Below, piece after piece: positions 58,796 through 60,559 of a stretch of DNA of 64,000 bases. The DNA comes from Escherichia coli (GTDB lineage Bacteria; Pseudomonadota; Gammaproteobacteria; Enterobacterales; Enterobacteriaceae). The DNA lies in the NCBI RefSeq assembly GCF_045037415.1, contig NZ_CP173438.1; one strand, written 5' to 3'. The notes below the pieces were generated by a model that searched no databases, was not told the origin of the DNA, and saw nothing but the letters and a program-made list of their open reading frames with translations. The translations under genes were made by a program, and so were the position numbers. How positions within the stretch are numbered: the first letter of the stretch is position 1; the number at the start of each line of letters is the position of its first letter.

Positions 58796-60559
58796 ATGAA
58801 AATGACTTTGCCGTTTAAACCCCATGTGCTGGCGCTAATTTGCAGTGCCGGGCTCTGTGCCGCCTCTGCCGGGCTATATATAAAAAGCCGCACAGTGGAA
58901 GCGCCTGTGGAAGCGCAATCGACACAACAGACTGCGCCTGACATCTCCGCAGTTACGCTTCCAGCAACGGTTTCCGTGCCTCCTGTAACACCTGCCGTCG
59001 TCAAATCCGCATTCAGCACTGCTCAAATAGATCAATGGGTTGCACCTGTCGCGCTATACCCCGACTCTCTGCTTTCACAAGTGTTAATGGCATCAACCTA
59101 TCCGGCAAACGTTGCTCAAGCAGTGCAATGGTCGCACGATAATCCACTTAAACAAGGCGATGCTGCTATTCAGGCGGTATCTGACCAGCCCTGGGACGCC
59201 AGCGTCAAATCACTGGTGGCCTTTCCACAGTTGATGGCATTGATGGGCGAAAACCCGCAATGGGTGCAAAACCTGGGCGATGCTTTTCTGGCGCAGCCGC
59301 AGGACGTGATGGACTCGGTACAGCGATTGCGGCAACTGGCGCAACAAACCGGCTCGCTGAAGTCATCAACTGAACAAAAGATCATCACGACAACGAAAAA
59401 AGTCGTACCGGTAAATCAGCCCGCCAACGCCCCTGCCACACAATCAAATACCGTTTCTACGTCCAGCCCCGTCGTCGCAGAACCTGCACCGACCGTAATA
59501 ACCATTGAGCCAGCCAATCCGGATGTGGTTTATATTCCGAACTACAACCCAAACGTGGTTTACGGCAGTTGGGCCAATACCGCTTATCCACCAGTTTATC
59601 TGCCGCCGCCAGCCGGAGAACCGTTTGTTGACAGCTTTGTGCGCGGATTCGGCTATAGCATGGGCGTTGCTACCACATACGCACTATTCAGCAGCATCGA
59701 CTGGGACGACGACGATCATGACCATGACCATCATCATCATGACGATGATGATTATCATCACCACGATGGCGGTCATCGTGACGGTAATGACTGGCAACAC
59801 AACGGCGACAACATCAATATCGACGTCAACAATTTCAACCGTATCACCGGTGAGCATCTTACTGATAAGAATATGGCATGGCGGCACAATCCAAACTACC
59901 GTAATGGTGTGACCTATCATGATCAGGATATGGCAAAGCGGTTTCATCAAACCGATGTCAACGGCGGAATGAGCGCCACGCAGTTACCTGCTCTATCGCG
60001 CGACAGCCAGCGTCAGGCGGCAGCAAGTCAGTTTCAGCAACGAACACACGCCGCCCCCGTCATTACGCGAGATACCCAACGTCAGGCAGCGGCACAGCGG
60101 TTTAATGAAGCGGAACACTATGGCAATTATGACGACTTCCGCGAGTTCAGCCGCCACCAACCACTGACCCAGCAGCAAAAGGACGCCGCTCGCCAGCGTT
60201 ATCAGTCTGCCTCACCTGAGCAGCGCCAGGCGGCCCGTGAGAAAATGCAGACTAGCCCGCAGAATCAACAGCAAAGAGATGCAGCACGTCAGCGTATTCA
60301 GTCCGCGTCGCCTGAGCAGCGCCAGGTGTTTAAGGAAAAAGTACAGCAGCGCCCACTGAACCAAGAGCAACGTGATAACGCCCGCCAGCGTGTTCAATCG
60401 GCATCACCTGAACAACGTCCGTTTTTTCGGGAGAAAGTTCAGGAGAGCCGCCCGCAACGTCTAAACGACAGTAACCGTACTGCCAGGCTGAATAACGAGC
60501 AGCGGTCAGCAGTACGCGAACGTCTCTCTGAACGTGGGGCAAGAAGACTGGAAAGGTAA
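58796..60559 (+). CDS. yacH: DUF3300-like protein YacH with His/Asp-rich tract and C-terminal SASPEQR repeats
   Basis: 587-aa translation with signal peptide; position between acnB and lpd matches yacH. Confidence 0.75.
   Translation: MKMTLPFKPHVLALICSAGLCAASAGLYIKSRTVEAPVEAQSTQQTAPDISAVTLPATVSVPPVTPAVVKSAFSTAQIDQWVAPVALYPDSLLSQVLMASTYPANVAQAVQWSHDNPLKQGDAAIQAVSDQPWDASVKSLVAFPQLMALMGENPQWVQNLGDAFLAQPQDVMDSVQRLRQLAQQTGSLKSSTEQKIITTTKKVVPVNQPANAPATQSNTVSTSSPVVAEPAPTVITIEPANPDVVYIPNYNPNVVYGSWANTAYPPVYLPPPAGEPFVDSFVRGFGYSMGVATTYALFSSIDWDDDDHDHDHHHHDDDDYHHHDGGHRDGNDWQHNGDNINIDVNNFNRITGEHLTDKNMAWRHNPNYRNGVTYHDQDMAKRFHQTDVNGGMSATQLPALSRDSQRQAAASQFQQRTHAAPVITRDTQRQAAAQRFNEAEHYGNYDDFREFSRHQPLTQQQKDAARQRYQSASPEQRQAAREKMQTSPQNQQQRDAARQRIQSASPEQRQVFKEKVQQRPLNQEQRDNARQRVQSASPEQRPFFREKVQESRPQRLNDSNRTARLNNEQRSAVRERLSERGARRLER

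What the first reader, a model, noticed from the sequence alone, without database searches (positions are those of the whole stretch)
58796..60559. YacH carries a His/Asp-rich tract and degenerate C-terminal repeats
The 587-aa protein has a signal peptide, a DUF3300-like N-terminal region, an acidic/histidine block (DWDDDDHDHDHHHHDDDDYHHHDGGHRD, nt about 59700..59790) suggestive of divalent-metal binding, and at least four degenerate repeats of the form ARQR-QSASPEQRQ--EK-Q (nt about 60180..60450). I recall the K-12 protein as longer, so repeat number may vary between strains. Its function is not established.
Basis: partly seen in the sequence, partly recalled or inferred. Interest (0 to 1): 0.4.

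Follow-up and report, generated by a model that had tools for sequence, protein, structure and literature searches.

The report
E. coli yacH: variable His/Asp tract, repeats
This is the ordinary, already catalogued E. coli gene yacH (an exported envelope protein of unknown function) whose histidine/aspartate tract and C-terminal 32-residue repeats are real and differ in length between strains, which is a modest curiosity rather than a new system.

Summary
The ORF at 58796-60559 (+) is intact yacH, a 587-aa DUF3300 protein lying between acnB and lpdA and 100% identical to E. coli SK1144. The His/Asp block is at aa 302-329 (nt 59699-59782).

K-12 YacH has 617 aa and four units, and E. coli alleles carry 2, 3, 4 or 5 units, produced by several different in-register events. 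The His/Asp tract changes by codon slippage; the window allele has one extra CATGAC.

The tract is present in all 28 Enterobacteriaceae orthologues sampled, at 1-9 His. The wider family has only a 7-residue motif at that site.

The DUF3300 core has no solved structural relative. Function remains unknown, and metal binding is plausible but untested.

One new side result: every non-Escherichia enterobacterial locus examined has a DUF2950 gene directly downstream of yacH. Escherichia lacks both that gene and a widely shared C-terminal tail motif.

Published work links yacH to envelope stress (Cpx, Rob, ampicillin, antimicrobial peptides). Verdict: real, mostly ordinary, interest 0.3.

The parts
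58796..60559 (+). yacH coding sequence (587 aa plus stop), a DUF3300-family protein
   Evidence: The ORF is listed. It is 100% identical to the annotated DUF3300 CDS WP_000784417.1 of E. coli SK1144. Pfam PF11737 matches at E=2.4e-77.
58796..58870 (+). N-terminal export signal (aa 1-25): basic n-region, hydrophobic core aa 11-29, A-S-A|G candidate cleavage site
   Evidence: This is the only segment with a Kyte-Doolittle mean above 2. In the family, 103 of 119 homologues have an N-terminal hydrophobic segment and 13 have a lipobox-like motif. Whether the signal is cleaved or acts as an anchor was not determined.
58871..59017 (+). Linker 1 (aa 26-74), rich in Pro, Thr, Ala and Val, predicted disordered
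   Evidence: Model confidence (pLDDT) is 45-57. Against K-12, dN/dS is 0.63 and divergence is 11-16%.
59018..59350 (+). Helical lobe of the DUF3300 core (aa 75-185)
   Evidence: pLDDT is 95-98 and eight helices are predicted. It holds the nearly invariant APxALYPD...TYP and W133/Q176/R179 columns. dN/dS is 0.036.
59396..59491 (+). Linker 2 (aa 201-232), a disordered insert inside the DUF3300 envelope; dimorphic within E. coli
   Evidence: In the surrounding stretch, gene nt 591-720 (window 59386-59515, aa 198-240), the window/B2 type and the K-12 type differ by 26% in nucleotides. That exceeds E. coli versus E. albertii at this segment.
59492..59698 (+). Second lobe of the DUF3300 core, first part (aa 233-301): IEPANPDVVYIPNYNP..YG.W...YPPVY and a Gly-rich segment
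   Evidence: pLDDT is 76-95 and dN/dS is 0.054. The Gly-rich segment has a Kyte-Doolittle mean of 0.89 by my hand calculation; the best 19-residue window outside the N-terminus scores only 1.29, so it is not a transmembrane helix in this allele.
59699..59782 (+). His/Asp tract (aa 302-329), a disordered acidic, His-rich loop
   Evidence: Sequence. pLDDT is 47-58. Net charge is -12 with 10 His over aa 302-330. The codon tract has periods of 6, 15 and 21 nt.
59717..59731 (+). CATGAC hexamer run (2.5 copies): the slippage site that gives the window allele its extra His-Asp
   Evidence: Tandem Repeats Finder. The codon alignment of 13 alleles shows window = K-12 type plus one CATGAC.
59807..59923 (+). 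Second lobe of the DUF3300 core, second part (aa 338-376): NINIDVNNFN ... WRHNPNYRNGVTYHD
   Evidence: pLDDT is 81-95. W.H.P.HR.GV.Y appears in the family consensus. dS is 0 against K-12.
59997..60103 (+). Pair of 23-aa repeats (RDSQRQAAASQF / RDTQRQAAAQRF), conserved across Enterobacteriaceae
   Evidence: Direct repeat family D3, 74% nucleotide identity, spacing 69 nt. The motif is present in all enterobacterial tails examined.
60176..60271 (+). 32-aa repeat unit 1 (type A; aa 461-492)
   Evidence: It is 86% identical in DNA to K-12 unit 1.
60272..60367 (+). 32-aa repeat unit 2 (type B; aa 493-524)
   Evidence: It is 91% identical in DNA to K-12 unit 3.
60368..60463 (+). 32-aa repeat unit 3 (type C, terminal; aa 525-556)
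   Evidence: It is 97% identical in DNA to K-12 unit 4.
60476..60556 (+). Degenerate, shortened fourth unit and basic C-terminus (aa 561-587)
   Evidence: EQR-x3-RE[KR][VL] matches the unit core by eye on the sequence. LNNEQRSAVRE is conserved across Enterobacteriaceae.
60572..60600 (.). Hairpin flanked by an A-run and a U-run, between the convergent genes yacH and lpdA: a likely bidirectional intrinsic terminator
   Evidence: RNA fold -15.9 kcal/mol, z = -3.2, and 0 of 200 shuffles fold as well. The simple terminator scan did not list it.

Best explanation
Identity. This is the intact yacH gene of E. coli. It encodes a Sec-exported cell-envelope protein of the DUF3300 family.

Anatomy.
- An export signal at the N-terminus.
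- A Pro/Thr-rich linker.
- A two-lobed DUF3300 core, with a helical lobe followed by a mixed lobe.
- A basic tail of about 190 residues, rich in Gln and Arg.

The His/Asp tract. It is a disordered loop. In Enterobacteriaceae it has expanded from a short acidic motif, (C/I)(D/N)WGxxD, that sits inside the core in the rest of the family. It is encoded by GAY/CAY codon repeats, so it grows and shrinks in frame by replication slippage. The most likely role (inferred, not shown) is low-specificity binding of divalent cations such as Zn, Ni or Cu. Alternatively it may act as a pH-titratable acidic patch that can pair with the basic tail.

The 32-aa units. The model gives two helices for each of the first two units, with breaks at the prolines. 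They are the Escherichia-specific version of a basic, disordered, repeat-prone tail found across the whole family. Their number changes by in-register unequal recombination between units, giving 2-5 copies. The motif QxDxARQRxQSASPEQR is kept by purifying selection. The tail most likely contacts an anionic envelope component or a partner protein (inferred).

Physiology, from the literature. The gene is envelope-stress responsive, and deleting it raises protamine resistance.

Confidence by layer. The identity, anatomy and polymorphism layers are about 0.95 likely. The cation-binding-loop and anion-binding-tail mechanism is about 0.3 likely.
For: Shown here:
- Gene identity and synteny.
- Pfam match.
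- A single N-terminal hydrophobic segment, and family-wide signals or lipoboxes.
- Models with confident core lobes and a low-confidence tract.
- The canonical 7-residue motif at the tract site in 112 of 119 homologues.
- A His/Asp-rich run in all 28 Enterobacteriaceae orthologues, with 1-9 His.
- Slippage signatures of +6, +24 and -39 nt, all in frame.
- Unit architectures A-A'-A'-B-C, A-A'-B-C, A-B-C, A-[A'/B]-C, A-A'-[B/C] and [A/B]-C.
- About 55% four-unit and 42% three-unit alleles in two systematic samples, n=40 and n=60.
- Between units, synonymous differences are near saturation (pS 0.66-0.85) while pN is 0.08-0.17 in the motif.
- Gene-wide dN/dS of 0.16.
- The gene is disrupted in about 3 of the 100 sampled genomes.
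- Family tails have a median length of 164 aa and a median net charge of +15, and 98% are net positive.

From papers:
- yacH is CpxR-regulated; a yacH deletion survives protamine better; protamine lowers its transcription (measured there), and that paper cites earlier work for cecropin A (PMC9600279).
- Its mRNA falls in a rob mutant (PMC7537768).
- Its promoter is induced by ampicillin (PMC8865558).
- It is induced by a cathelicidin-derived peptide in UTI89 (PMC6737244).
Against: - No metal-binding data exist, and there is no homology to any metal-binding protein.
- Tract length is loosely constrained. Within E. coli it ranges from -13 to +8 aa. One 53%-identical relative (P0126) lacks it entirely.
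- Four S. Typhimurium strains (14028s, UK-1, SL1344, D23580) carry degraded yacH, so the protein is dispensable there (PMC3391293). An 8-bp deletion causing a frameshift was reported for UK-1 and for a milk isolate, where it reads GATCATCA at Asp284 (PMC10048834); that sequence and position suggest it lies in the tract.
- The ligand of the tail is unknown.
- The repeat helices are not amphipathic.
- The reported Cpx effects are inconsistent in direction: up in cpxA24, down with protamine.
- Signal-peptide cleavage and final localisation were not determined. Papers variously call the protein 'extracellular', 'outer membrane' or 'membrane', without experiments.
Confidence: 0.55

Rival explanations
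1. Neutral low-complexity drift. The His/Asp tract and the 32-aa units would be selectively near-neutral products of slippage and unequal recombination in disordered regions. They would be tolerated because they do not disturb the DUF3300 core, and would have no specific function such as metal binding.
For: - Both regions are predicted to be disordered or only weakly ordered.
- Both vary in length within the species.
- The tract is lineage-specific.
- The repeat sequence and period differ between genera: 32 aa in Escherichia, 18-19 aa elsewhere.
- dN/dS is higher in the tract (0.30) than in the core (0.04-0.05).
- yacH is degraded in several S. Typhimurium strains, and the 8-bp deletion reported for two of them appears to lie in the tract.
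Against: - His/Asp-rich composition is kept in all 28 Enterobacteriaceae orthologues.
- The tract is nearly identical between E. coli and E. albertii.
- QSASPEQR is identical in amino acids in all three units while synonymous sites between units are near saturation.
- Every length variant I aligned or translated is in frame.
- A strongly basic tail is conserved across the whole family.
Confidence: 0.3
2. Diversifying or contingency locus. YacH would be surface-exposed, and its variable linkers, tract and repeats would be kept polymorphic by selection from phage, the immune system or antimicrobial peptides. It would then resemble variable-repeat surface proteins or phase-variable genes.
For: - yacH is 2.5-6 times more divergent than its neighbours: 7.9% in nucleotides against K-12, compared with 3.1% for acnB and 1.3% for lpdA.
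- dS is 0.25, compared with 0.13 and 0.05 for the neighbours.
- Linker 2 exists in two deeply diverged forms, 26% apart, which exceeds the E. coli to E. albertii distance at that segment. The gene is a mosaic, with dS = 0 in aa 335-395.
- Repeat number varies recurrently.
- A deletion mutant has an antimicrobial-peptide phenotype.
Against: - dN/dS is below 1 in every segment, with a maximum of 0.63.
- The 96-nt units and the tract indels keep the reading frame, so there is no on/off switching.
- Units in the window allele are only 61-70% identical in DNA, which is too diverged for high-frequency slippage.
- There is no evidence of surface exposure.
Confidence: 0.08
3. Bitopic membrane protein. 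The Gly-rich hydrophobic segment before the tract (aa 284-301) would be a glycine-zipper transmembrane helix. The DUF3300 helical lobe would then face the periplasm, and the His/Asp tract and basic tail would be cytoplasmic, following the positive-inside rule.
For: - Distant homologues have a more hydrophobic GxxxG-rich segment at this position, for example LVSGMAFAAGVGIVGSMWGW.
- The tails are strongly net positive.
Against: - The Kyte-Doolittle mean is only 0.89 in E. coli and 1.37 in the homologue quoted above. Both figures are my hand calculations; the best 19-residue window outside the N-terminus scores 1.29.
- The full-length model gives residues on both sides of the segment (aa 233-300 and 340-390) pLDDT 76-95; in the core-only model (pTM 0.78) the segment after the tract is confident only over aa 360-380.
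- The residues immediately after the segment are highly acidic.
Confidence: 0.07

Closest known systems
E. coli K-12 YacH (b0117, NP_414659.1), a DUF3300 domain-containing protein
   Same: It is the same gene at the same locus, between lpd and acnB. The domain order, signal, core, His/Asp tract and tail are the same, and the protein is 91% identical.
   Different: - The window allele has three 32-aa units instead of four; it lacks unit A'.
- It has one extra His-Asp pair in the tract.
- It carries the alternative form of linker 2.
- It is 7.9% divergent in nucleotides.
The DUF3300 (PF11737) / DUF2950 (PF11453) two-gene module of Proteobacteria, function unknown (PMC4653623)
   Same: The full-length Pfam match, the export signal, the basic low-complexity tail and the conserved core motifs are shared.
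   Different: - Escherichia has no DUF2950 gene downstream, nor anywhere detectable in 5,426 E. coli genomes.
- Escherichia lacks the tail motif (A/V)(F/L)SGNDSRSPSW.AQ.QRG.QSR, which the other Enterobacteriaceae and about half of the wider family keep.
- Enterobacteriaceae add an expanded His/Asp loop.
His-rich, acidic metal-binding loops of periplasmic proteins, for example the ZnuA His-rich loop or ZinT. These are recalled from memory: a lead, not a test.
   Same: Composition (alternating His and Asp), predicted disorder, and a location in an exported protein.
   Different: There is no sequence or fold relationship to any solved metal-binding protein, and metal binding by YacH has never been measured.
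In-frame coding tandem repeats (VNTR-type length polymorphism) in bacterial envelope proteins. This is a general category, from established knowledge.
   Same: Copy number differs between strains by whole units (96 nt) through in-register recombination between units.
   Different: - The units are old and diverged, 61-91% identical in DNA.
- Only 2-5 copies occur.
- The reading frame is never switched.

Membership tests
DUF3300 (Pfam PF11737) | Significant match to the family HMM over most of the model | tested here: met
   E=2.4e-77, score 259.9, model positions 2-227 of 227, aa 75-335. All RefSeq hits are annotated as DUF3300.
DUF3300 (Pfam PF11737) | N-terminal export signal (signal peptide or lipobox) | tested here: met
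   Hydrophobic segment at aa 11-29 with a Kyte-Doolittle mean of 2.04 and an ASA|G site. 103 of 119 homologues have such a segment. This is sequence inference only; cleavage was not shown.
DUF3300-DUF2950 two-gene module | A DUF2950 gene immediately downstream on the same strand | tested here: not met
   - In the window, convergent lpdA follows after 70 nt.
- tblastn with the Raoultella DUF2950 (Pfam E=3.3e-77) hits all 23 non-Escherichia loci among L015-L037 and all 5 distant loci. It hits none of the Escherichia loci and not the window.
- There is no blastn match in 5,426 E. coli genomes.
DUF3300-DUF2950 two-gene module | Conserved C-terminal tail motif [FL]xG...RGxxS(R) | tested here: not met
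   The motif is absent from the four Escherichia orthologues aligned (E. coli window, E. whittamii, Escherichia sp. MOD1-EC7003, E. albertii). It is present in all 10 other enterobacterial tails aligned and in 6 distant members. A loose form occurs in 49 of 102 family members, against 5.4 expected from shuffled tails.
His-rich metal-binding proteins or loops | Demonstrated binding of Zn, Ni or Cu by the His-rich segment | not testable with these tools
   Composition only: 10 His and 13 Asp in 29 residues.
His-rich metal-binding proteins or loops | Homology (sequence or fold) to a characterised metal-binding protein | tested here: not met
   - phmmer of the tract against PDB: best E=0.83.
- Family profile against PDB: best E=0.046, unrelated.
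- Foldseek: no hit at E<=0.001.
Phase-variable (contingency) locus | A repeat tract whose length changes shift the reading frame or promoter spacing | tested here: not met
   The unit is 96 nt. The tract indels seen are +6, +24 and -39 nt, all multiples of 3. The one frameshift found in an E. coli genome lies outside both repeat regions. An 8-bp deletion that appears to lie in the tract is reported in Salmonella, but as a fixed pseudogene rather than a switch.
Coding VNTR (in-frame repeat-number polymorphism) | Whole-unit differences in copy number between strains of one species | tested here: met
   2 units (553 aa), 3 units (585-601 aa), 4 units (604-620 aa) and 5 units (648 aa).
Apolipoprotein-like amphipathic helical repeats | Pro-punctuated helices with a high hydrophobic moment | tested here: not met
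   The weak phmmer hit to ApoA-I (E=0.23) is not significant. The helices have a hydrophobic moment of 0.05-0.28 and a mean hydrophobicity of -0.5 to -0.8.

The most novel reading that the evidence does not exclude
Escherichia YacH would be the surviving half of a widespread exported two-protein module, DUF3300 plus DUF2950, and would have been re-tooled after the genus lost the partner gene together with the tail motif that probably docked it. In this reading the expanded His/Asp loop (net charge about -12 with 10 His, so its charge is titratable near pH 6 and by metals) and the basic repeat tail (net +14) form an intramolecular electrostatic latch. Metal ions or acid pH would open the latch. 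That would change how the envelope interacts with cationic antimicrobial peptides. The 2-5 unit polymorphism would tune the strength of the latch between lineages.
Probability: 0.1. Interest if true: 0.55.

Novelty: already known. Interest (0 to 1): 0.3.

Why it matters
yacH belongs to the still-uncharacterised part of the E. coli genome (the 'y-ome'). DUF3300 is a very large family with no characterised member and, as shown here, no solved structural relative: 9,482 cluster representatives match at E<=1e-3.

This work gives a concrete anatomy for the protein. It also gives natural allelic series, with 2-5 repeat units and tract lengths from -13 to +8 residues. Finally it gives a comparative handle, because the partner gene and a tail motif were lost together in Escherichia. 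These make cheap experiments possible on metal binding, antimicrobial-peptide susceptibility and partner docking.

None of this overturns existing knowledge. The practical value is as a starting point for assigning a function to DUF3300/DUF2950, and as a caution that yacH length differences between strains are natural repeat polymorphism rather than assembly errors.

Tried and rejected
- Tandem Repeats Finder and seed-based repeat search on the DNA found the His/Asp codon tract but not the 96-nt units. The units had to be defined from the protein.
- NCBIfam has no family for the protein.
- I rejected an apolipoprotein-like amphipathic repeat. The hit has E=0.23 and the hydrophobic moments are low.
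- I rejected a glycine-zipper transmembrane helix at aa 284-301 for this allele. Hydrophobicity is low, and the full-length model gives confident structure on both sides of the segment.
- A CpxR box (GTAAA-N5-GTAAA with up to 2 mismatches) occurs once upstream, at 58727-58741 on the minus strand. Such matches are not above chance in the window: 68 found against 54 +/- 7.5 expected. The published Cpx regulation therefore could not be confirmed from sequence.
- The sigma-70 scan found no promoter-like site on the yacH strand.
- I rejected phase variation, because all repeat changes are in frame.
- The 'second places' per genome reported in the BLAST searches were not inspected. I read them as off-register matches between repeat units, not as a paralogue.
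Full report
**1. What is at the coordinates**

The window holds one long ORF at 58796..60559 (+), 587 aa. It lies between acnB (minus strand, divergent) and lpdA (minus strand, convergent). It is 100% identical in DNA to the annotated 'DUF3300 domain-containing protein' WP_000784417.1 of E. coli SK1144. The same gene is called yacH (b0117) in K-12.

Pfam gives one significant domain: DUF3300 (PF11737), aa 75-335, E=2.4e-77, covering the whole model. NCBIfam has no family for it.

A hairpin flanked by an A-run and a U-run at 60572-60600 sits between yacH and lpdA and looks like a bidirectional terminator.

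**2. Checking the observation**

- The His/Asp block DWDDDDHDHDHHHHDDDDYHHHDGGHRD is at aa 302-329, nt 59699-59782. In its 24-residue core, 21 residues are D or H against 6.9% elsewhere, giving a corrected p of about 4e-19.
- The C-terminal repeats are real. There are three, not four, clear units: QSASPEQR at aa 470, 502 and 534, exactly 32 aa apart, spanning nt 60176-60463.
- A shortened, degenerate fourth unit forms the C-terminus (aa 561-587). This match is by eye.
- A separate pair of 23-aa repeats lies upstream.
- The three units are only 61-70% identical in DNA, so the DNA repeat finders missed them.
- The N-terminus has the only strongly hydrophobic segment of the protein (aa 11-29), followed by ASA|G.

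**3. Does length vary by repeat units? Yes**

K-12 and BL21 YacH have 617 aa and four units. I label them A-A'-B-C. The window allele is A-B-C and also has one extra His-Asp pair, so 617 - 32 + 2 = 587. Other architectures found:

| Units | Architecture | Examples |
|---|---|---|
| 5 | A-A'-A'-B-C | P0116, 648 aa |
| 4 | A-A'-B-C | K-12, BL21 (O157:H7 by gene length only) |
| 3 | A-B-C | window, A21 |
| 3 | A-[A'/B]-C | KO11FL, F829 |
| 3 | A-A'-[B/C] | IHE3034, Nissle, UTI89 |
| 2 | [A/B]-C | strain 158274-3, 553 aa |

All junctions are in register. This is what unequal recombination between units would give, and the different hybrids show several independent events.

In two evenly spaced samples of the 5,416-5,425 matching complete genomes, about 52-55% are four-unit alleles and 42-45% are three-unit alleles (n=40; n=60). 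About 3 of the 100 sampled genomes carry a disrupted gene: an IS1 insertion, a 2-nt deletion, and one partial match that I did not inspect. About 10% of genomes (546) carry the window allele at 99% identity or more.

**4. The His/Asp tract varies by slippage**

Codon alignment of 13 Escherichia alleles shows:
- window = modal tract plus one CATGAC hexamer;
- Nissle = a 24-nt duplication;
- ACN001 = a 39-nt deletion between CAT repeats.

Other E. coli proteins show a run of seven His, or one His fewer. Every variant I aligned or translated is in frame. The modal 30-residue form is almost identical in E. albertii.

In S. Typhimurium, yacH is listed as degraded in 14028s, UK-1, SL1344 and D23580. 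An 8-bp frameshifting deletion was reported for UK-1 and for a milk isolate (PMC3391293, PMC10048834). In the milk isolate it reads GATCATCA at Asp284, which suggests it lies in the tract.

**5. Conservation**

The family is very large: 9,482 cluster representatives match at E<=1e-3.

In an alignment of 119 diverse members, the site of the tract is normally a 7-residue motif, C[DN]WG[GHR][GN]D, followed by D/N-I-D/N-I-N. Only 7 of 119 members have 5 or more His there. All 28 Enterobacteriaceae orthologues fetched from species-representative genomes have a His/Asp-rich run, with 1-9 His. The tract is therefore an enterobacterial expansion of a short acidic core motif. Its composition is conserved but its length is loose.

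The 32-aa unit is specific to Escherichia. Other genera have 18-19-aa repeats such as LQNPTAQQQQRRxxAKSH or STPEQRQARRENVQQRV. Across the family the tail is long (median 164 aa), poor in hydrophobic residues, and net positive in 98% of cases, with a median charge of +15.

**6. Selection**

- yacH differs from K-12 by 7.9% in nucleotides, against 3.1% for acnB and 1.3% for lpdA.
- Gene-wide dN/dS is 0.16. The core lobes are at 0.04-0.05, the tract at 0.30 and linker 1 at 0.63.
- Between the three units, synonymous differences are near saturation (pS 0.66-0.85), while the 17-codon motif QxDxARQRxQSASPEQR has pN 0.08-0.17. The units are old and the motif is under purifying selection.
- Linker 2 exists in two forms that differ by 26% in nucleotides, more than E. 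coli differs from E. albertii at that segment. The gene is a mosaic, with dS = 0 in aa 335-395.

**7. Structure**

AlphaFold2 with a 119-sequence alignment gave mean pLDDT 72.5:
- a helical lobe (aa 75-185) at pLDDT 95-98;
- a second lobe (aa 233-301 and 340-390) at pLDDT 76-95;
- the tract at pLDDT 47-58;
- helix pairs in the first two 32-aa units at pLDDT 69-87.

The Gly-rich segment before the tract is not hydrophobic enough to be a membrane helix in this allele. The repeat helices are not amphipathic, so the weak ApoA-I hit (E=0.23) is rejected.

**8. Gene context: a side result**

In four distant DUF3300 members, a DUF2950 gene follows immediately. This agrees with a report that the two are universally co-localised and carry signal peptides (PMC4653623).

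The same holds in every non-Escherichia enterobacterial locus I fetched (L015-L035 and L037), including Salmonella, Citrobacter, Raoultella and Kluyvera, and in the Bordetella-labelled locus L036. The Raoultella ORF matches PF11453 at E=3.3e-77. No Escherichia locus (E. coli, E. albertii, E. whittamii, cryptic clades) has it, nor does the window. A Citrobacter DUF2950 gene finds no match in 5,426 E. coli genomes at blastn sensitivity.

The four Escherichia orthologues I aligned also lack the tail motif (A/V)(F/L)SGNDSRSPSW.AQ.QRG.QSR. The other Enterobacteriaceae and about half of the wider family keep it: 49 of 102 members, against 5.4 expected by chance. The joint loss of the gene and the motif suggests that the motif served the partner. 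This is an inference from a single evolutionary event.

**9. Literature**

No functional characterisation of YacH, DUF3300 or DUF2950 was found.

Reported:
- yacH is CpxR-regulated, and a yacH deletion survives protamine better. Protamine lowers its transcription; that paper cites earlier work for the same effect of cecropin A (PMC9600279).
- Its mRNA is strongly reduced in a rob mutant (PMC7537768).
- Its promoter is induced by ampicillin (PMC8865558).
- It is induced by a cathelicidin-derived peptide in UTI89 (PMC6737244).
- A knockout improves recombinant protein yield (PMC7376861).

A CpxR box could not be confirmed from sequence.

**10. Interpretation**

Shown:
- the gene's identity;
- the exported-protein architecture, at the sequence level;
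- the reality and coordinates of the tract and units;
- their in-frame polymorphism and its mechanisms;
- purifying selection on the unit motif;
- the lineage-specific origin of the tract;
- the absence of a solved structural relative;
- the loss of the DUF2950 partner in Escherichia.

Inferred:
- The tract is a divalent-cation-binding or pH-titratable loop.
- The basic tail contacts an anionic envelope component or a partner.
- Together they influence susceptibility to cationic peptides.

I put the mechanism at about 0.3. The main rival, neutral low-complexity drift, is also at about 0.3. Diversifying selection and a bitopic membrane topology are minor rivals.

**11. Verdict**

The feature is a known, annotated gene of unknown function. 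The new details are the 2-5 unit series, the slippage variants, the dimorphic linker, and the loss of the partner and tail motif. They are useful but modest. Interest 0.3; novelty: already known.

Noticed in passing
window 60560-60629 (yacH-lpdA spacer); loci L015-L037, about 5560-6560: A DUF2950 (PF11453) gene directly follows yacH in all 23 non-Escherichia loci among L015-L037 and in 4 distant DUF3300 members. It is missing from every Escherichia locus, from the window, and from 5,426 E. coli genomes. Escherichia YacH is therefore an 'orphan' of a conserved two-gene module.
   Followed up: yes
window about 60440-60480 (aa 549-562), compared with L015-L037 tails: The four Escherichia orthologues aligned lack the conserved tail motif (A/V)(F/L)SGNDSRSPSW.AQ.QRG.QSR. 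The other Enterobacteriaceae and about half of the wider DUF3300 family keep it. Its loss coincides with the loss of DUF2950.
   Followed up: partly
window 59386-59515 (aa 198-240): Linker 2 occurs in two deeply diverged forms within E. coli, 26% apart in nucleotides, which exceeds E. coli versus E. albertii at that segment. The window/B2 form is closer to E. whittamii (8.5%). yacH is a mosaic, with dS ranging from 0 to 0.89 along the gene.
   Followed up: partly
L024 6518-6814 (-); L013 5989-6261 (-): A small ORF of 90-98 aa with a signal peptide lies between DUF2950 (or yacH) and lpdA. It was detected in 14 of the non-Escherichia loci and in E. albertii, but tblastn does not detect it in the window or in any E. 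coli locus fetched.
   Followed up: no
L005 (E. coli F829), yacH aa about 165-180: An in-frame 16-aa tandem duplication (LAQPQDVMDSVQRLRQ) lies inside the highly conserved helical lobe of the DUF3300 core.
   Followed up: no
L045 (E. coli AST85) 3001-4860: A record labelled E. coli carries a very divergent yacH: 619 aa, with only 5% of the K-12 gene matching by megablast. It has its own, nearly identical 33-aa repeat units.
   Followed up: no
H41 (SW071611), L014 (E69), L046 (strain a7): Occasional disrupted alleles occur: an IS1 insertion, a 769-nt insertion after gene nt about 1100, and a 2-nt deletion at nt 488-489 (annotated as 'frameshifted'). None lies in the His/Asp tract or the repeats.
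   Followed up: partly
L034 (record titled Chryseobacterium sp. 18061): This contig carries an enterobacterial acnB-yacH-DUF2950 locus; its AcnB is 94% identical to that of E. coli. The record is probably mislabelled or contaminated.
   Followed up: no
L018 (Salmonella enterica subsp. arizonae) 5597-6199: The DUF2950 match covers only 201 of 264 residues, so the gene may be truncated in this genome.
   Followed up: no
window 60572-60600: An A7-GCGGC(7-nt loop)GCCGC-U6 hairpin lies between convergent yacH and lpdA (z = -3.2). It is a likely bidirectional terminator, and the simple terminator scan missed it.
   Followed up: partly
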